DNA from: Escherichia phage O18-011
Sequence record: NC_070985.1
Reading direction: 5' to 3' (one strand)
Length of the DNA stretch: 64,000 bases
The translations under genes were made by a program, and so were the position numbers. The notes beneath the pieces were generated by a model that was not told the DNA's origin, did no database searches, and was given only the letters and a program-made list of their open reading frames with translations. Numbering within the stretch: the first letter of the stretch is position 1; each line of letters opens with the position of its first letter. Shown in pieces: positions 41,519 to 47,393 of the stretch.

Positions 41519-42010
41519 TTAAGTCCTGTCCACCCACGTACTGAATCTCAACTTACCACATTCCCTACACCTCCATGTTGATAGGTAGAGACCGTGTATT
41601 CTTTCATCCCCGTAAGCTTTACGAAGAAGATAGTAATTGTGCTTACACTTCATCCGTCTAAATACTTTAATCAGATTCATTCTCTACCTCTCTTCTAATA
41701 CTTATTAATTTTATAACTGTTCTAGCAGCATCCATTCTTTGCCAATCAGATAGGGATGTATCATTCATTCTGTCTGAGTGTTCAACTATAAATTTATTCA
41801 ATTCATCAATAACTTTCTGAGTCATATTCAACCTTATATATAAGAGTTTAAAATACAGATTTATAAAAAATAAAGATGTATATATCTGTTTAAAATTCTG
41901 ATTTGACCGAGTGGGGCTAGGCGCTCTGCGGCGAATTGTTAAAAAGGGGGAGTCCTCATTTAAAAAAGGGGTATTGGCAATGCCTTTACATCCCTATCAA
42001 CGTTTCAGCG

Positions 42011-42457
42011 TTTCCCCGTGCTTACTCCCCGTTATTCTTTCCCCGTATATGTCATCTATTACATTACCTACCCGTTAAATTAGTACCCCTTTACTGAATG
42101 GATGAAAGGCTAGCACTGATAGCAAACTAGTTAAGGCTTGATTATAACCATGACAATAATACCGTATTGTTACCATTCAGCTCCCCATAGTTTGAATGTA
42201 AATAGTTTCAATGGTAATGATTATGAGTGCAATAATGATGTATGTATTAATTAAGTGGATGATTGTGTTTCTTTTATTACTTTCTTTTTCAGCGTGCATG
42301 AGCGTAGCGAATGGTCTTTTCTTTTATGAGTTTACATTAATAGTTAACTAATTATTTAAGTGGTATATTATTACCGCACTATCTGGCATGTTTCCCCGTG
42401 GTCTGTTCTGCGGTTGTTGTATGCCCCGTCCTATATAGTAGAAATAGTTTACCCGTG
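42011..42457. repeat. dispersed TTTCCCCGTG-like repeats in non-coding region
   Basis: TTTCCCCGTG at 42011 and 42391, TTTCCCCGTA at 42038, TTTACCCGTG at 42448, plus shorter CCCCGT copies. Confidence 0.5.
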
Positions 42458-42525
42458 GTCGCTTGTCTTCTTTGTTAAGTAGTAGTAAATTGAAGCCTAT
42501 TGATTGAGTGATTGGAGTGATAAAA

Positions 42526-42699
42526 ATGATTATCCTAGTAATGATGGCAATGGCTGTAGTCTTTCCTTTACTTGTTCTAATCGTTTGTGAAGTAGTTGAG
42601 TCGTTCACGGATAGCAAGTTAAGCCCAAGAAACAAACCGAGTAAGTTTACTGGCGCTAAATTTAGTAGCAAGAAAGTTAGAAAGATGGTTGCAATGTAA
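42526..42699 (+). CDS. small membrane protein (57 aa)
   Basis: ATG 42526 after GGAGTGA; hydrophobic N-part, basic C-tail; shares 15-mer GTGATAAAAATGATT at its start with 43529 ORF. Confidence 0.35.
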   Translation: MIILVMMAMAVVFPLLVLIVCEVVESFTDSKLSPRNKPSKFTGAKFSSKKVRKMVAM

Positions 42700-42752
42700 G
42701 AAAGCGTGTCCTATTATATCCCTATCTATTACATATCAATGAGGCTTCACAA

Positions 42753-43244
42753 ATGACTAAACCGATGCAGATGATTAATCTGGCAAGTTATGCGCTAGTC
42801 GCCGCGATCGGTGTTAGTGCGCTGGTCACATCTCTTTCTGATAAGGCTATCGCTGGCCCTACTTCTGCAACTAATGCCGCTGATGTTTTCGCTAGTTCCA
42901 TCAATAAAGGTTGGATGATTTGCAACGGTGCGGATAGTGATGGAAGTGCTATTGTGTTAAAAGTGAAATTTAGTAACGTTACCAGTGAAGGCGTTCTCTT
43001 TCAATCTAAGACGTTGGATAATCAGCCTAACAGTGATCTAGTTCTCAAGCGTACTGATAATGATTCTGATATGGTGACGTATGGCACTGTAAAACGTTAC
43101 GAAGACGTTAAAGCTGTAACCAATCTAGTGAGTTATGGCCCGGTTAAAAAGTCGATGATCGCCACCACGGTTTACAATAATGCTGATAATGCTGTTTATA
43201 CCGTTTACATTAATTTAGCCAACTGCATCAAGGCCAGCAAATAA
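42753..43244 (+). CDS. secreted/periplasmic protein, function unknown
   Basis: Signal-peptide-like N-terminus MINLASYALVAAIGVSALVTSLSDKAIA; G/C-richer codons than neighbours. Confidence 0.5.
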   Translation: MTKPMQMINLASYALVAAIGVSALVTSLSDKAIAGPTSATNAADVFASSINKGWMICNGADSDGSAIVLKVKFSNVTSEGVLFQSKTLDNQPNSDLVLKRTDNDSDMVTYGTVKRYEDVKAVTNLVSYGPVKKSMIATTVYNNADNAVYTVYINLANCIKASK

Positions 43245-43271
43245 GTAACCAATTTTCAGGAGTAACAAAAA

Positions 43272-43523
43272 ATGAGTAACAAAGTGATCAAATTATCCAG
43301 CGGTGTTTCTTGTTTTGTTTGTGATACTTTTATCGCGTTCGGCTTAAAAGAAGGTGACGTGATACTTCCTACAGTTGCCTTTTGTTCCATGAGTTTTAGC
43401 GAGGCCAAAAGATGGCTCCAATTGGTGCGCATTGATATTAACCGCGATGACTTTCGTTCAATTTATGTTGACGGTGATTTGTCACTTGCTGGTCTTCTGG
43501 ATTGTGATTTGCCAAAATGGTGA
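43272..43523 (+). CDS. hypothetical protein
   Basis: ORF track; SD AGGAG upstream. Confidence 0.5.
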   Translation: MSNKVIKLSSGVSCFVCDTFIAFGLKEGDVILPTVAFCSMSFSEAKRWLQLVRIDINRDDFRSIYVDGDLSLAGLLDCDLPKW

Positions 43524-43528
43524 TAAAA

Positions 43529-43615
43529 ATGATTCATGATTATTTTTTGCGTTGTTTGTTCGTTGTTACAGTGGCGTTATTCGTCGCTGATATGCTTTAT
43601 TCTTATATCATCTGA
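43529..43615 (+). CDS. small hydrophobic peptide (28 aa)
   Basis: ATG 43529 in the same 15-mer context as 42526; single hydrophobic helix. Confidence 0.25.
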   Translation: MIHDYFLRCLFVVTVALFVADMLYSYII

Positions 43616-43645
43616 CTAGAAGCGTAATGATTTAAAACCTTCCTG

Positions 43646-43675
43646 AAAGCCTCGCCATGAGGCTTTTTTCTTTTC
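43646..43675 (+). terminator. rho-independent terminator
   Basis: AAGCCTC-gccat-GAGGCTT followed by TTTTCTTTTC. Confidence 0.6.
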
Positions 43676-43831
43676 TAAGGTGATTGTATGCCTTACTCCC
43701 TTTTAGCTCGCTGTAGTGCGTTTTAGGCCGCCTATTGTTGCATTATAAGCCGTTTCCTATGGTGTAACGCGTTCGCCCGCTCTTTTATCTTCCCCATAGT
43801 GAAAAAGTTTAAAATATTTTGCTTTACCCTA

Positions 43832-43859
43832 TTGCACCTCATGAAAGTTAGCGTATACT
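43832..43859 (+). promoter_or_regulatory. candidate early promoter P0 (sigma70-like)
   Basis: TTGCAC-16 nt-TATACT with A/T-rich upstream tract; weaker match than P1 and P3. Confidence 0.35.
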
Positions 43860-43907
43860 GATTTTCATCGGGTACGATGTAAAACATACAAGGGCAAGAA
43901 ATTGCCC

Positions 43908-43920
43908 CGCTCTTTAAAAA
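43908..43920 (+). promoter_or_regulatory. boxA-like element 1
   Basis: CGCTCTTTAAAAA; compare lambda nut/rrn boxA consensus CGCTCTT(T)A. Confidence 0.5.
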
Positions 43921-43957
43921 TCAGGCTAGAAAGTGAAAAAAATACTTGAAAAAGTAT

Positions 43958-43985
43958 TTGACAACTGAAAAGCCTAACCTATAAT
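43958..43985 (+). promoter_or_regulatory. early promoter P1 (sigma70 consensus)
   Basis: TTGACA-16 nt-TATAAT, A-rich UP-like tract upstream. Confidence 0.6.
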
Positions 43986-44020
43986 GAGTGTACAAGGTCA
44001 GCGATGACCTAAAAAAATCC

Positions 44021-44033
44021 CGCTCTTTAAAAA
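44021..44033 (+). promoter_or_regulatory. boxA-like element 2
   Basis: CGCTCTTTAAAAA, preceded by hairpin AGGTCA-gcga-TGACCT (43995-44010). Confidence 0.5.
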
Positions 44034-44106
44034 CTTATCGTCTTGCCCTTTCGCATAGAATCAAGCGAGATAAGGGAAGAGAATAAAAGAAGACGATAAA
44101 AAGAGT

Positions 44107-44134
44107 TTGACAAGCTAACACGACGTGTTAAGCT
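44107..44134 (+). promoter_or_regulatory. candidate early promoter P2
   Basis: Perfect -35 TTGACA with A-rich upstream tract; -10 region weak (TAAGCT). Confidence 0.35.
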
Positions 44135-44148
44135 GTAAATGCAGTAAC

Positions 44149-44161
44149 CGCTCTTTAACAA
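44149..44161 (+). promoter_or_regulatory. boxA-like element 3
   Basis: CGCTCTTTAACAA, identical to the E. coli rrn boxA core as I recall it. Confidence 0.55.
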
Positions 44162-44263
44162 TATGAATCATGAGTTAAGCCTTATCGCTTAATCTTCAAT
44201 CAAATAAAGCTGGTTGATATATCCTCCCAATAGCGGGAACGATGAAAAAGATTAAAAAAGTGA

Positions 44264-44292
44264 TTGACGGCGGAAGCAAAATGATTCATAAT
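44264..44292 (+). promoter_or_regulatory. early promoter P3 (sigma70-like)
   Basis: TTGACG-17 nt-CATAAT; downstream ATAATGAGYGTAC shared with P1. Confidence 0.55.
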
Positions 44293-44385
44293 GAGCGTAC
44301 TCACTAAGCAGATCACCGCTTCAGTGAAAAAGCGAAACAACGGCTAACAGTTGCGTAGTGTGAGAAAGCACACTGACAGATTTAC

Positions 44386-44398
44386 CGCTCTTTAATAA
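44386..44398 (+). promoter_or_regulatory. boxA-like element 4
   Basis: CGCTCTTTAATAA, preceded by hairpin GTGTG-agaaag-CACAC. Confidence 0.5.
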
Positions 44399-45222
44399 TT
44401 TAAACATTCCTCTATATCGGTTAAATATGTTTGATGATAATAACCATCGGAAAACATACCAGATAAAACGGCGTAAAACTCCCTAAAACATCAGGGTAAA
44501 CAGTTTTTACAATCCCTTAACTGGAAAAGTCGCCACTGATAAGCGGATTCATTGAGTACACGCAACGGTTTAAGCTAATCGCCCACGGTTAAGGGTAGCG
44601 GCGGCCATCGCTAACAAGGTGCTACAGTGAAAGAAGCTAATCAGGGCAGACAAGTCCGACAAATTAACGCCCAATTGAGGGCGGTGGGGAATGGTTAAAA
44701 GGTGGCAAATTGCTATTTAACAATAAGGTTTAGTGTGAACGTTTACGATGCGAACGGCTTGAGATTCGTCTTACGATGAAAGCACATAGTCGGTTTATGT
44801 AGTAAACTTGCCGAAAGATATAAAACGCCGGAATATTAGGCGGTTAGTGACTTTTTCGCAATAGTATCCCGTAGTGGGCGATGACTAGCGACAAAGAGCT
44901 AATACAAAAGGATAGGCGGGAGCGAAAGCAAAGTAGACGATATTGCCAACGGTTACGATAAAAGTAACTAATTAGAGTTGGACGCACTGCCTTATTGTGA
45001 TGATTGATCATCGCTACGCAATCCGGCTTTATTTATAGCGGAAAATTAAAGCGTACCAGATGAAACATCACGGATAAGGGGGCGGCAAGGTTAACTCCTG
45101 ATAAGACCGCCCCACTTACCTATAAGCGTTTACAGTGAGCGTTTATAGTTAAGTCAATAGTGACTTAAAAGGCTCATAGCGAGCGGGGGCAATAGTGCCC
45201 TTACAATTGAAAGGTGAATATC

Positions 45223-46122
45223 ATGGCTAAAATTTTCAATCTGGTAAAAGAATCTGGCTTTAACGCACTTGCTAACAACATTCGTAGTAATAACGCGGCG
45301 ATTAAACAAGACGTTTCTAATTTTCTGTTAGGGCACTTGCAGCACTTCCGCAGTAACGGTAAAAAGCTGGACGTATTGCAGTCGGCAGTTGATTTTCTGT
45401 TAACCGAACGTTTCCGCGATATGGACGTGATCGCCACTGCAATTACTTTCTTAACTCCCATCAAGTTTAACACCGATGCGGCAAACGGTCGTAAAAAGTG
45501 GATTAATCTGGAAGGTGAAGCGAAAGCGAAAGAAGACGCGAAAGAAGCGCAAATTAAGGCCAAAATGGAACAAAACCGCGCTCGCTGGTCAAACGCTTTC
45601 GAAAACTTTGCTTTAGGTCGTGAAATTGAAGTCGATAATCCTAACTTTTACAAGGGTTGCAATGACAACGTGGCGGCACATCTGCAAATCCCGGCGAAAA
45701 ACAAGGAAGATTTTAACCAAGATATTTACGCTTTAGTTGAACGCTTGAATGCAATCCGTATTGAAGCCAAATTGCTGGCTGATGAGCGCAACGGCGCTAC
45801 CAGTGACAATACCATCGCTTTGAGTGAAGAAGTGGGCAAGGTTAAGAAGTCCTTTGATTCACTCATCAAGAAAGTCACGGCTTCAACGGTAGCGATCTCT
45901 GACGATTATCTGATGAACGCATCAAGCAAGGAGCTGGAATCACTCGATTCATACGCTGATGAAATGGAAAAGACTATTGCAGCTATGCAGGAGAAGTTAG
46001 AAAGTCTGCGCGGTCGTATCTCTTCAACGGTTGCTACCCGTACCGAACAAGCGGCGAAAGAAGAAGAGGAAGAAGTATTGCGCAAGGCAGCTGAAATTAT
46101 GGCGGCACGTCAGGCAGCATAA
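45223..46122 (+). CDS. first early protein, function unknown
   Basis: ATG 45223 after AAAGGTG; Lys/Glu-rich helical protein; followed by strong terminator. Confidence 0.6.
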   Translation: MAKIFNLVKESGFNALANNIRSNNAAIKQDVSNFLLGHLQHFRSNGKKLDVLQSAVDFLLTERFRDMDVIATAITFLTPIKFNTDAANGRKKWINLEGEAKAKEDAKEAQIKAKMEQNRARWSNAFENFALGREIEVDNPNFYKGCNDNVAAHLQIPAKNKEDFNQDIYALVERLNAIRIEAKLLADERNGATSDNTIALSEEVGKVKKSFDSLIKKVTASTVAISDDYLMNASSKELESLDSYADEMEKTIAAMQEKLESLRGRISSTVATRTEQAAKEEEEEVLRKAAEIMAARQAA

Positions 46123-46145
46123 GTAAGACAATTCTAATAAACATG

Positions 46146-46181
46146 AGGCGCTATCTTAACGGGTAGCGCCTTTTCTTTTAT
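46146..46181 (+). terminator. rho-independent terminator
   Basis: AGGCGCTA-loop-TAGCGCCT followed by TTTCTTTTAT. Confidence 0.65.
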
Positions 46182-46233
46182 CAGTGCATTGATTCAGTGC
46201 ATTAATCAAAGAATATAATCAAAGGTGACGATC

Positions 46234-46452
46234 ATGTTAATTACGCATACCACGATTTATCGGAATCTTGTCAACGGTCAACATTACCGACTATCTAAAA
46301 AGTATGGCGTTGAATGTAAATGTGCTATTACCGGTGAATGGTATCCGTCGCCAATGAAGATTGAAACGTTGGAACGTGATGCTGTTAGTTACACTATCAC
46401 GCAAGAAACAACGTTAGGCCGTATCTTGAGAAAGATGGGATTAAGAAAATGA
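46234..46452 (+). CDS. hypothetical small protein
   Basis: ATG 46234, 8 nt after AAAGG; track ORF 46225. Confidence 0.45.
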   Translation: MLITHTTIYRNLVNGQHYRLSKKYGVECKCAITGEWYPSPMKIETLERDAVSYTITQETTLGRILRKMGLRK

Positions 46453-46673
46453 TATTCAGTAGTAATTTTGGTAAGTGTCCTATTTGTGAGAAACATCGCA
46501 GCACGGGAAACCATCGCAAATGTAGTAAGATATTACAGCGACGCCGTGATCACAAGCATTGGGATACTGTACACACTAACCAGCGAAAAGAAGAAGTTAA
46601 AGCAATGGCTGTTAAAGCATCTTTTGCTCAATCCACTCGTATTGAACATCTTCAAAGGTATCAATCACTATGA
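46449..46673 (+). CDS. small basic zinc-ribbon-like protein
   Basis: ORF track; CPIC motif; start overlaps upstream stop. Confidence 0.4.
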   Translation: MIFSSNFGKCPICEKHRSTGNHRKCSKILQRRRDHKHWDTVHTNQRKEEVKAMAVKASFAQSTRIEHLQRYQSL

Positions 46674-46879
46674 TCACTAACATTTCAGAATTTAAGAAAG
46701 CTCCTTCCAGACTGTTAGGCCGTCGTGTTGTATATCTTTACAGCAATAAAGGTAAATGCACAACCGGAAGGATTACAACGGTGAGTAGTGCCAATAAGAA
46801 ACTACTAAAACTATGCGTAACTATGGATGACGGCACAATCCTACTACGCAGTTGGAAGTCTTTTAGTTTACTTGATTGA
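46670..46879 (+). CDS. hypothetical small protein
   Basis: ORF track; SD AAGGTA; start overlaps upstream stop. Confidence 0.45.
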   Translation: MITNISEFKKAPSRLLGRRVVYLYSNKGKCTTGRITTVSSANKKLLKLCVTMDDGTILLRSWKSFSLLD

Positions 46880-46949
46880 ATTGTTTGTTCAAGCCTATCC
46901 CTATGATGGGCTTGCCCGATATAATTTATCATTAAAAAGGAATAAGATT

Positions 46950-47393
46950 ATGGCTAAATCTAAAATCAGCATGAAGGGCGGGCGTTGTTTTTCTATCTCT
47001 GAACTGGAGAAAGAGAAGCCAAAGGCAACCAATCACGTCAGTAAGCGTAGTTTAAAACGTCGTGCTGCAAGGGCTGAAGCTGAATCTCATGTTCCTTCTA
47101 GTGTGGCAAAACGTGTAGGCCATCGTGTCCATCGTGCTGATGCGTTATTGTTAGCCGATCATAAACGTTCTTTGTTAAAGAGCGGGGGAGCTAAAACAGA
47201 AGAGGAGAAGAAGTTAGAAATCTTCTGTAATGGTCGCACCCGTGGTAAACAGAAGTTTAAGGGTAGCACGAAAGACCCGCAAGCTTTCCCTAAGACTAGC
47301 CAGTGTGCGCCTGATGTTTTCTACGCAGACAGTAAACATAAATGGGACGTTGAGAAATACATTGACCCCATCAAAGAGGCAAGGGTTAAGTAG
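46950..47393 (+). CDS. basic protein, function unknown
   Basis: ATG 46950 after AAAAAGGAATAAG; Lys/Arg-rich. Confidence 0.5.
   Translation: MAKSKISMKGGRCFSISELEKEKPKATNHVSKRSLKRRAARAEAESHVPSSVAKRVGHRVHRADALLLADHKRSLLKSGGAKTEEEKKLEIFCNGRTRGKQKFKGSTKDPQAFPKTSQCAPDVFYADSKHKWDVEKYIDPIKEARVK

What the first reader, a model, noticed from the sequence alone, without database searches (positions are those of the whole stretch)
44399..45222. About 820 nt ORF-free, repeat- and hairpin-rich leader between the last boxA and the first early gene
No ORF with a plausible RBS, only tiny ORFs. It contains a GGGGCGG-21 nt-CCGCCCC inverted repeat and several short direct repeats such as GCGTTTA and CGTTTACGATGCGAACGG. 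It lies downstream of the promoters and boxA, so it is transcribed first after injection. Candidate structured non-coding RNA, or a DNA-level site involved in genome entry.
Basis: seen in the sequence. Interest (0 to 1): 0.4.

Follow-up and report, generated by a model that had tools for sequence, protein, structure and literature searches.

The report
Giant structured RNA in coliphage leader
The gene-free 820 bases at the head of this phiEco32-like phage's main early operon encode a large, intricately folded RNA absent from Rfam and the papers searched, which is made with the same signals E. coli uses for ribosomal RNA; its function is unknown.

Summary
Window 44399-45222 has no conserved ORF and lies directly after the last of five consensus boxA copies. 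It ends at the Shine-Dalgarno sequence of a 299-aa gene.

The window is a Kuravirus (phiEco32-like) coliphage. The stretch is present at full length in all 96 related phage records and is as conserved as the neighbouring coding sequence.

It is a structured RNA read from the + strand:
- Close relatives give 225 consensus pairs, 99% paired. 75 pairs show compensatory changes, against 6-11 in slid controls.
- G.U makes up 10% of paired cells, A.C 0.26%.
- A 9-bp kissing interaction joins two domains.

Uncultured relatives, whose downstream protein is only 37-70% identical, keep the same layout: tandem boxA copies, then 870-936 ORF-free bases, then the homologous gene. They also keep most helices and the kissing pair.

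No Rfam family matches, and the papers searched call the region only a "spacer" with promoters.

Best reading: a new large ornate RNA expressed through an rRNA-operon-style cassette. It probably acts as a folded RNA or RNA-protein particle early in infection. That function is inferred. A cis-regulatory leader is the main rival. The DNA-site reading is not supported.

The parts
43645..43667 (+). Intrinsic terminator closing the upstream short early operon; upstream boundary of the unit
   Evidence: 10-bp stem plus T-run. The equivalent site is annotated as a terminator in SU10, SU7 and 4E8.
43778..44395 (+). Expression cassette: tandem sigma70-type promoters, each followed by a hairpin and a boxA copy (boxA at 43778, 43908, 44021, 44149, 44386)
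   Evidence: 5 + strand matches to CGCTCTTTWA against 0.26 expected in the window. Promoters at 43958-43985 (12/12 consensus) and 44264-44292 (10/12) come. TTGCAC-16-TATACT at 43832-43859 and TTGACA at 44107-44112 were read by eye. The SU10 paper reports three sigma70 promoters in this 'spacer' (PMC4281155). The number of modules varies between relatives.
44386..44398 (+). Last boxA (CGCTCTTTAATAA here; YGCTCTTTAACAAT in relatives); marks the 5' edge of the structured RNA in every clade
   Evidence: Invariant in 32 close sequences. It lies 870-936 nt upstream of the ATG in all distant relatives.
44380..45222 (+). The structured RNA as a whole (about 830 nt from boxA to the start codon)
   Evidence: 225 consensus pairs in 35 helices, 99.0% of cells paired, 75 pairs with compensatory changes. 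z = -6.9. No Rfam match at E<=10.
44399..44699 (+). Domain I: multi-helix domain closed by 44399-44411/44687-44699. Its long arm (44529-44559/44619-44651) carries the 5' kissing loop.
   Evidence: Helices 2-13. The closing helices are kept in distant clades (0.76-0.92 paired). The interior aligns poorly in distant clades.
44700..44718 (+). Small hairpin followed by the near-invariant linker GCAAAUUGCUAUUUAACAAUAAGGUUU
   Evidence: Helix 14. The linker has a 26-nt stretch identical in 25 sequences apart from one C/U position.
44720..44998 (+). Domain II: closed by 44720-44737/44983-44998, with inner helices 44740-46/44933-39, 44755-67/44778-92, 44807-12/44915-20, 44843-53/44894-903, 44857-65/44884-90, 44946-56/44964-81
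   Evidence: Helices 15-26. These are kept across clades with many compensatory changes.
44578..44586 (+). Kissing loop, 5' arm (AUCGCCCAC), in domain I
   Evidence: 9 bp with 44874-44882. 100% paired in 32 sequences with 2 compensatory pairs. Kept in all distant clades, with further compensatory or G.U changes.
44874..44882 (+). Kissing loop, 3' arm (GUGGGCGAU), in a hairpin loop of domain II
   Evidence: Same as the 5' arm.
44995..45073 (+). Domain III: long irregular stem (44997-45002/45066-71, 45004-19/45051-65, 45021-28/45037-43)
   Evidence: This stem emerges once distant sequences are added. In one search, helices 8 and 9 have 27 pairs, 19 of them with compensatory changes, 97% paired. 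The base of the stem was also supported in close relatives (helix 2).
45079..45113 (+).
   Evidence: helix 30 (5 of 7 pairs compensatory); helix 10 (5 of 5). The stem is expanded in the most distant clade.
45114..45201 (+). 3' hairpin array: 15-17 bp hairpin 45114-45131/45137-45154 (contains the GCGTTTA repeats), then 45172-75/45181-84 and 45186-90/45197-201
   Evidence: helix 12 (13 of 15 pairs compensatory); helices 32-35.
45210..45225 (+). Shine-Dalgarno (AAAGGUGA) and ATG of the co-transcribed gene. GGUGAAU can pair with AUUUACC (44380-44386), just 5' of the last boxA.
   Evidence: helix 1. The pairing is kept in all close sequences (GGUAAAU in TH34 and Bas88), but the only variation is a G.U-to-A.U change, so it carries no compensatory support. 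An alternative partner for boxA (GAGAGCGG near 45176-45186) exists, so this remains unresolved.
45223..46122 (+). 299-aa helical, coiled-coil protein of unknown function that always follows the RNA
   Evidence: Present in the same number of phage records (96) as the RNA. Its homologs down to 37% identity all have the boxA cassette and an ORF-free 870-936 nt upstream. Only 12 clusters match among 1.84 billion representatives. phrog_13018, unknown function. AF2 pLDDT 72, no PDB fold match.
46145..46172 (+). Strong intrinsic terminator after the 299-aa gene; downstream boundary of the unit
   Evidence: 12-bp stem plus T-run. No + strand terminator lies inside the RNA or between the RNA and the gene.

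Best explanation
The region encodes a large multi-domain structured RNA that I could not find in Rfam or in the papers searched. It is about 830 nt here and 870-936 nt in relatives.

Proposed sequence of events:
1. Host RNA polymerase starts at several strong tandem sigma70 promoters as soon as this DNA is in the cell.
2. Each transcript carries a consensus rrn-type boxA. I infer that it recruits NusB/NusE and the rest of the rRNA antitermination complex.
3. That complex would let the polymerase cross about 0.8-0.9 kb of untranslated RNA without Rho termination. It may also tether the 5' end to the polymerase and so help long-range folding, as it does for rRNA.
4. The RNA folds into three domains plus a 3' hairpin array, locked by a 9-bp kissing interaction between domains I and II.
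5. Transcription continues without a terminator into a 299-aa protein gene that always accompanies the RNA.

I commit to the view that the folded RNA itself is the functional product. It would be a stable RNA or RNA-protein particle, possibly with the 299-aa protein, acting on a host process during early takeover, rather than a switch for one gene.

What is shown: the sequence elements, the fold, its conservation, the strand, and the linkage to boxA and to the gene.
What is inferred: Nus-factor recruitment, any processing from the mRNA, the protein partner, and the biological target.
For: Identity and conservation:
- Window identity.
- The region is full length in all 96 related phage records.
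- Mean pairwise identity is 86.4%, against 83.3% for the adjacent CDS. Length is fixed at 813-824 nt.

Structure in close relatives:
- 225 pairs, 99.0% of cells paired.
- 75 pairs and 368 cells with compensatory changes, against 6-11 pairs and 14-30 cells in slid controls. 0 of 500 shuffles reached the observed value on four of the five measures (11/500 for further pair types).

Structure across clades (3' 500 nt, 17 sequences):
- 92.9% paired, 69 of 87 pairs compensatory.
- Covariation score 0.60 against 0.08-0.11 in controls.

Out-of-sample test: the structure derived from close relatives is 67% paired in 9 distant sequences, against 36-43% for slid controls.

Kissing helix: conserved with compensatory changes in every clade.

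Strand: G.U 10.2% against A.C 0.26% of paired cells. z = -6.9 for the + strand and -3.55 for the - strand.

Non-coding.

Cassette and linkage:
- Five boxA copies.
- The same cassette-RNA-gene order holds in relatives down to 37% protein identity.
- No internal terminator; terminators flank the unit.

Background from the literature:
- boxA rescues transcription through a long untranslated 5' region from Rho, and the Nus/SuhB complex promotes rRNA folding (PMC4807359, PMC10250234).
- Size and complexity match the known ornate RNAs, which act as particles (PMC12286853). No bacterial cis-leader I know of is comparable (own knowledge).
Against: - There is no expression, end-mapping or stability data. 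A discrete RNA species has not been shown.
- The RNA always abuts the Shine-Dalgarno sequence of the next gene with no terminator, which is what a cis-acting leader would look like.
- A possible helix between the boxA flank and the Shine-Dalgarno sequence hints at translational control.
- No target, ligand or protein partner is identified. The 299-aa protein has no recognisable RNA-binding fold.
- The interior of domain I could not be aligned convincingly in the most distant clades.
- Much of the close-relative covariation is inherited in blocks through recombination, so cell counts overstate the number of independent events.
Confidence: 0.55

Rival explanations
1. Cis-acting leader. The RNA stays attached to the early mRNA and controls it, by one of three routes: gating translation of the 299-aa gene through sequestration of its Shine-Dalgarno sequence, sensing a host signal, or protecting the polycistronic early mRNA from RNase E and Rho.
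For: - The RNA ends at the Shine-Dalgarno sequence in every clade, with no terminator.
- AUUUACC, next to boxA, can pair with GGUGAAU of the Shine-Dalgarno sequence in all close relatives.
- In phage TH34, one column (the G at 44997) changed together with both of its alternative partners, in helix 15 and in the domain III base. This hints at alternative conformations.
- The composition is G>C (24% vs 18.6%) and the RNA is highly paired, which disfavours Rho loading.
Against: - 830-936 nt with over 30 helices and a conserved kissing loop is several times larger than any bacterial cis-regulatory leader I know of (own knowledge).
- The closing helix carries no compensatory change, is only 51% paired in distant clades, and has a competing partner.
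- No ligand-type Rfam family matches.
Confidence: 0.25
2. Decoy for the host rRNA machinery. Very high transcription of RNAs carrying up to five boxA copies plus a pseudo-rRNA body soaks up NusB/NusE/SuhB or ribosome-assembly factors, shutting down host ribosome synthesis.
For: - Five consensus boxA copies lie in tandem, although one downstream of all promoters would suffice; L090 also has five.
- Over-expressing nut RNA is reported to titrate Nus factors and lower rRNA expression (PMC4807359, introduction).
- The cassette has rrn-like features: A-rich tracts upstream of near-consensus promoters.
Against: - Titration needs only boxA, so it does not explain an 830-nt fold conserved at single-pair resolution.
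- The number of boxA modules varies from 2 to 5 between relatives, as expected from simple promoter-module duplication.
Confidence: 0.08
3. Replication pre-primer or origin transcript. A structured RNA forms a persistent hybrid and primes DNA synthesis, as ColE1 RNA II or the T4 and T7 origin transcripts do.
For: - Strong promoters feed a long untranslated G-rich RNA; GC skew reaches +0.24 across 44600-44999.
- RNA II is likewise a long (about 550 nt), structure-dependent RNA (own knowledge).
Against: - No AT-rich unwinding element or repeated protein-binding sites follow the RNA. A translated gene starts immediately.
- boxA-type antitermination promotes read-through rather than stalling.
- The phage carries its own primase/helicase module, as its relatives do (own knowledge).
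Confidence: 0.05
4. DNA-level element (genome-entry, packaging or protein-binding site), or unrecognised small proteins.
For: - The region lies a few kb from the phiEco32 genome end (coordinates).
- Many automatic annotations-60 aa ORFs here.
Against: - Substitutions preserve base pairs on the + strand and tolerate G.U but not A.C. Duplex DNA sites do not evolve this way.
- The called ORFs differ between records, lie on both strands and are not conserved.
- Careful annotations leave the region empty.
Confidence: 0.03

Closest known systems
GOLLD, ROOL and OLE: large 'ornate' bacterial and phage-associated RNAs (Rfam families; cryo-EM structures in PMC12286853)
   Same: - Size class of 600-900 nt, with many helices and multi-helix junctions.
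- Highly conserved unpaired nucleotides and long-range tertiary pairing.
- GOLLD and ROOL are often carried by phages or prophages.
- Function unknown.
   Different: - No sequence or structure match to any of them (cmscan at E<=10).
- Found in virulent E. coli podophages rather than Firmicutes, rumen or lake organisms.
- Sits as the 5' part of the main early operon behind rrn-type boxA signals and is always followed by one particular protein gene.
- Oligomeric assembly is untested.
E. coli rRNA operon leader and rrn antitermination complex (boxB-boxA-boxC, leader-trailer helix; PMC4807359, PMC10250234)
   Same: - Tandem strong promoters.
- A hairpin followed by consensus boxA (GCUCUUUAACAA).
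- A long, highly structured untranslated product.
- Possible pairing between the boxA-proximal 5' flank and the 3' end of the structured body.
   Different: - The product is unrelated to rRNA.
- No boxC was identified.
- The putative closing helix is short (7-9 bp, against more than 17 bp required for 16S) and lacks compensatory support.
- boxA is repeated up to 5 times, and a protein gene follows in the same transcript.
Phage antitermination RNAs: lambda nut (boxA+boxB with N) and HK022 put
   Same: RNA elements in the first phage transcripts that make host RNA polymerase resistant to termination.
   Different: nut and put are 50-70 nt and are the whole device. Here boxA is the rrn consensus, which in the host works without N (own knowledge), and it precedes an 830-nt fold that antitermination alone does not require.
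T7 early region (promoters A1-A3, leader, RNase III site R0.3, then the anti-restriction gene 0.3)
   Same: - A podophage with a cluster of strong host-type promoters at the head of the early operon.
- A non-coding leader precedes the first gene.
- The first products serve host takeover or anti-defence (own knowledge).
   Different: The T7 leader after A3 is under 200 nt with a single processing hairpin. Nothing comparable in size or conservation is known there.
phi29 pRNA and ColE1 RNA II (structured RNAs of mobile elements with a dedicated job)
   Same: RNAs of mobile elements whose fold, including loop-loop kissing, is the functional entity.
   Different: pRNA (about 170 nt) is part of the late packaging motor. 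RNA II (about 550 nt) primes replication next to an origin. Neither context applies here.

Membership tests
Any Rfam 15 family (including GOLLD, ROOL, OLE, group I/II introns, RNase P, tmRNA, 6S, riboswitches) | Score at or above the family's covariance-model threshold | tested here: not met
   0 matches at E<=1 over 42000-47000. At E<=10 over 44300-45260 there were only 4 chance-level hits of 14-16 bits against gathering scores of 34-66.
Large ornate structured RNAs (descriptive class) | Over 500 nt, many helices supported by covariation, conserved unpaired nucleotides, long-range tertiary pairing | tested here: met
   About 830 nt, 35 helices, 75 compensatory pairs. Cross-clade, 69 of 87 pairs are compensatory. 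9-bp kissing helix. A near-invariant 26-nt stretch, partly unpaired.
Large ornate structured RNAs (descriptive class) | Homo-oligomeric particle or cage formation (as shown for GOLLD, ROOL and OLE) | not testable with these tools
   Needs native gels, SEC-MALS or cryo-EM of the transcript.
rrn-type (N-independent) antitermination leader | Consensus boxA GCUCUUUAACAA in the nascent RNA downstream of the promoter | tested here: met
   5 copies on the + strand here. YGCTCTTTAACAAT lies immediately 5' of the RNA in every relative.
rrn-type (N-independent) antitermination leader | boxB hairpin upstream of boxA, and boxC downstream | tested here: inconclusive
   Hairpins directly precede boxA at 43891-43908 and 43995-44010 (the first also appears). 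No boxC-like conserved element was identified.
rrn-type (N-independent) antitermination leader | NusB/NusE/SuhB-dependent read-through | not testable with these tools
   Needs nusB, suhB or boxA mutants, or ChIP.
rRNA-like leader-trailer architecture | Long helix between the 5' leader and 3' trailer enclosing the structured body, supported by covariation | tested here: inconclusive
   9 pairs (44380-90/45209-19), 96% paired in close relatives but with no compensatory change (helix 1). Only 51% paired in distant clades. An alternative boxA-GAGAGCGG pairing exists.
Cis-regulatory leader or riboswitch | Alternative structures that occlude or free the Shine-Dalgarno sequence or a terminator | tested here: inconclusive
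   Shine-Dalgarno pairing is possible. No terminator is present. There is one three-way covarying column, in phage TH34. No known aptamer matches.
Protein-coding gene or leader peptide | An ORF conserved in frame, start and stop across relatives | tested here: not met
DNA inverted-repeat site (cruciform or protein-binding palindrome) | Complementarity equally preserved on both strands (no G.T/A.C asymmetry) | tested here: not met
   737 G.U cells against 19 A.C cells in 7200 paired cells.

The most novel reading that the evidence does not exclude
This is a new class of giant ornate RNA, the first found in virulent coliphages that can be grown on E. coli K-12. It borrows the host's rRNA transcription-and-folding machine (tandem rrn-like promoters plus boxA) to be made and folded within the first minutes of infection.

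Alone or with its companion 299-aa protein, it would form a particle that disables a host system. Candidates are a nucleic-acid-targeting defence, which could explain the unexplained restriction resistance of Gordonclarkvirinae noted in PMC11990801, or ribosome and Nus-factor function.
Probability: 0.3. Interest if true: 0.92.

Novelty: categorically new. Interest (0 to 1): 0.82.

Why it matters
Only about a dozen bacterial RNAs of this size and complexity are known. Most have no known function, and almost none sit in organisms where genetics is easy. This one lies in phiEco32-like phages, whose transcription programme has been studied biochemically and whose BASEL members (Bas86-94) plate on E. 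coli K-12. Deletion, compensatory mutagenesis, pull-downs and cryo-EM are therefore all straightforward.

It also gives a natural case of the rRNA antitermination and RNA-chaperone machinery being used for a non-ribosomal RNA. That makes the proposed folding role of this machinery testable outside the ribosome.

If the RNA is an early anti-defence or takeover factor, it would be an RNA acting before any phage protein can be made. It could then bear on why these phages resist restriction systems.

On the practical side, dozens of GenBank records fill this region with spurious 30-60 aa 'hypothetical proteins' that should be replaced by an ncRNA feature.

On the novelty rating: 'categorically new' applies to the RNA family and its genomic arrangement. 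In the loose descriptive sense it joins the group of large ornate RNAs. boxA itself is a known element.

Tried and rejected
- Rfam at permissive thresholds: nothing.
- Similarity to E. coli chromosomes and plasmids: none. A 22-nt core motif in 185,579 reference genomes: none. The RNA is therefore not host-derived or prophage-borne.
- Metagenome motif scan: 8 true homologs. Three further hits (L035-L037) share only the AT-rich 22-mer and lie in unrelated contigs (L035 was read and looks bacterial), so they were rejected as chance.
- Degenerate domain III motif in IMG/VR: 37 hits, but only the 5 already-known Kuravirus contigs are real. The 32 others gave no nhmmer signal.
- Salmonella phage 7-11 (a phiEco32-like phage now placed in Grimontviridae): in the right-hand 45 kb examined there was no tandem boxA and no nhmmer hit, so the RNA is absent or unrecognisable there.
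- Direct repeats: only short two-copy families, not pursued.
- Small conserved ORFs or a leader peptide: none. An 'MKHHGK' ORF recurs in some clades but is 5 codons long here and variable elsewhere.
- 299-aa protein: only sub-threshold Pfam matches, a PHROG of unknown function, a moderate AF2 model, and no PDB fold match at E<=0.001. The afdb50 library was unavailable.
- Local hairpins predicted from close relatives at 44999-45012 and 45059-45069 were replaced by the long domain III stem once distant sequences were added.
- The local CCC/GGG hairpin at 44582-44595 and the inner part of helix 24 were replaced by the kissing helix.
- Structure-aware alignment (mafft-qinsi) was not installed, so the domain I interior in distant clades remains unresolved.
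- The two primary phiEco32 papers (PMC2587145, PMC3275717) are not in the library.
- No covariance model was built, because domain-sized models exceed the calibration limit.

Full report
WHAT THE WINDOW IS

The region and its flanks match 94-96 phage records, all E. coli or Shigella podophages of the subfamily Gordonclarkvirinae (Kuravirus, Suseptimavirus, Nieuwekanaalvirus; phiEco32, SU10, NJ01 and others). [quoted passage not shown]

CHECK OF THE OBSERVATION

Window 44399-45222 has no ORF of note on the + strand. In 25 relatives the longest stop-free stretches are mostly 24-45 codons and shift in frame and position. No small ATG ORF is shared between clades.

The GGGGCGG-21-CCGCCCC repeat is at 45079-85 / 45107-13. 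The listed direct repeats are short two-copy matches.

CGCTCTTTWA occurs five times on the + strand between 43778 and 44395, against 0.26 expected by chance in the whole window. Promoter-like sites precede them: 43958-85 matches the consensus 12/12 and 44264-92 matches 10/12. Two more were read by eye.

The + strand folds far better than shuffles (z = -6.9) and better than the - strand (z = -3.55).

CONSERVATION

The 824-nt stretch is present at full length, with 72-91% identity, in all 96 records found. In a 25-sequence alignment it is as conserved as the adjacent 299-aa gene: mean pairwise identity is 86.4% against 83.3%. Its length is held at 813-824 nt. Careful annotators leave it empty; automatic pipelines fill it with inconsistent 30-60 aa ORFs on either strand.

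IT IS A STRUCTURED RNA

RNAalifold on 25 sequences gives 225 pairs in 35 helices. Counting on that structure gives 99.0% of cells paired. 75 pairs and 368 cells have changes on both sides. When the 3' partners are slid by 1-3 columns these fall to 6-11 pairs and 14-30 cells. No shuffle of 500 reaches the observed value on four of the five measures; on the fifth (further pair types) 11 of 500 do.

G.U pairs make up 10.2% of paired cells and A.C 0.26%. The constraint therefore acts on the + strand as RNA, not on the complementary strand or on duplex DNA.

A scan for extra covarying helices found a 9-bp pairing between AUCGCCCAC (44578-86, domain I) and GUGGGCGAU (44874-82, a hairpin loop of domain II). 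It is paired in 32 of 32 sequences, with two compensatory positions.

MORE DISTANT RELATIVES

Homologs of the downstream protein at 37-70% identity exist only in uncultured assemblies. Every contig that could be read shows the same layout:
- 2-5 tandem copies of consensus boxA (YGCTCTTTAACAAT);
- then 870-936 nt without called genes;
- then the homologous gene.

nhmmer detects the RNA in these contigs, with E-values from 1e-98 down to about 3e-4 in the most distant one.

Three tests used these sequences:
- With nine of them added, the consensus has 175 pairs, 123 with compensatory changes.
- On the 3' 500 nt, 92.9% of cells pair and 69 of 87 pairs are compensatory. The covariation score is 0.60 against 0.08-0.11 for slid controls.
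- The structure derived only from close relatives holds in the nine distant sequences at 67% paired, against 36-43% for controls. Domains II and III and the 3' hairpins hold best. The interior of domain I is poorly aligned.

The kissing helix is kept in every clade, including L088 and L090, with further compensatory or wobble changes. The distant sequences also showed that 44995-45073 forms one long stem (domain III) rather than the small local hairpins first predicted.

CONTEXT

No + strand terminator lies inside the RNA or before the gene. Strong terminators lie at 43645-67 and 46145-72, so promoters, boxA copies, RNA and the 299-aa gene form one unit.

The protein family is tiny, with 12 clusters among 1.84 billion representatives. 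It has no Pfam match above threshold. It is predicted to be helical with a long C-terminal coiled coil and has no PDB fold match.

The RNA is absent from E. coli genomes, from reference bacterial genomes and from the right-hand 45 kb of Salmonella phage 7-11 examined.

MECHANISM

Shown:
- strong host-type promoters and consensus rrn boxA;
- the fold, the strand, and the linkage to the gene.

Inferred from established knowledge:
- boxA binds NusB/NusE and, with NusA, NusG and SuhB, makes RNA polymerase resistant to Rho.
- A 567-bp untranslated insert in a 5' UTR causes Rho termination that boxA relieves.
- The same complex loops the 5' end to the polymerase and promotes correct rRNA folding (PMC4807359; PMC10250234).

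An 830-nt untranslated RNA is just the kind of transcript that needs this. Its G>C composition and dense pairing also disfavour Rho.

I therefore read the cassette as an rRNA-operon-style device for making and folding a large RNA at the very start of infection, after which transcription continues into the early genes.

What the RNA does is not shown. Its size, number of helices, tertiary pairing and invariant unpaired stretches resemble the ornate RNAs that act as particles (PMC12286853), not any bacterial leader I know of. On that basis I favour a folded RNA or RNP product acting on the host.

The rivals, with my estimates:
- cis-regulatory leader, 0.25;
- Nus-factor or ribosome-machinery decoy, 0.08;
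- replication pre-primer, 0.05;
- DNA site or hidden peptides, 0.03.

COMPARISON WITH KNOWN SYSTEMS, AND NOVELTY

No Rfam 15 family matches, even at E<=10. Seven literature searches and the phage genome papers read gave no description of an RNA here. The two primary phiEco32 papers could not be read. A mention there, or in work outside the library, cannot be excluded.

[quoted passage not shown] It also notes that they resist restriction systems for unknown reasons. That is a possible, untested, link.

CAVEATS

- Relatives exchange segments of the RNA by recombination, so many compensatory 'cells' are inherited together.
- Alignments of the distant clades are based on sequence only.
- The 5'-3' closing helix is unresolved.
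- There are no expression data.

Noticed in passing
window 44380-45240 and homologs (alignment A2): The RNA is mosaic between lineages. Bas88, EK010 and the metagenome sequences L039 and L030 carry the 'NC-B-type' 3' third (about 45025-45222) joined to a 'main-type' 5' part. The downstream protein types do not track the RNA module types. Recombination evidently swaps whole sub-domains.
   Followed up: partly
L041 1005-3065, L042, L044, L046 and L088 (upstream of the last boxA): In the distant clades the gene-free zone is about 2.7-3 kb, and the genes beyond it point the other way. In L041, the 1.5 kb upstream of the first boxA has no ORF of 40 or more aa on either strand. It could hold the genome ends and terminal repeat, or further non-coding elements.
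   Followed up: partly
window 41900-42750: A second stretch of about 850 nt contains only small overlapping ORFs, upstream of the short early operon (42753-43523). By comparison with phiEco32 coordinates it lies about 2 kb inside the expected phiEco32 right end (about window 40450), so the window probably spans the junction of a circularly permuted assembly.
   Followed up: no
window 47175-47184 (- strand): A sixth exact CGCTCTTTAA lies on the opposite strand inside the ORF 46827-47393. It is isolated, with no promoter context examined.
   Followed up: no
window 43272-43523 and relatives (e.g. L002 1439-1702, L017 1011-1376): Small upstream ORFs of 83-121 aa are annotated in many GenBank records as 'polymerase', 'DNA polymerase B region' or 'terminase'. 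These are implausible for proteins of this size. The 83-aa ORF in the window (43272-43523) has no Pfam support and matches only a PHROG carrying the propagated label 'polymerase'. They look like annotation errors copied between records.
   Followed up: partly
window 45223-46122: In a few records the 299-aa gene is truncated while the RNA is intact where this was checked (myPSH1131 and IMEP8): myPSH1131 covers 49% and myPSH2311 54% of the gene, IMEP8 and PE006 90%. These are either sequencing or frameshift errors, or a hint that the protein is dispensable.
   Followed up: no
window 45088-45106: The nearly invariant hairpin loop GCAAGGUUAACUCCUGAUAAGAC contains CUCCU, the core of the 16S anti-Shine-Dalgarno sequence. 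Several NGAUAAG motifs recur next to G-rich helix strands (44461, 44535, 45071, 45099). Their significance was not established, and only some are conserved in distant clades.
   Followed up: partly
window 44385-44400 vs the E. coli rrn leader: In most relatives the last boxA with its 3' flank reads GCTCTTTAACAATTTA. From memory this is identical over 16 nt to the E. coli rrn leader boxA region. It could not be verified with the tools because the match is too short for the genome search.
   Followed up: no
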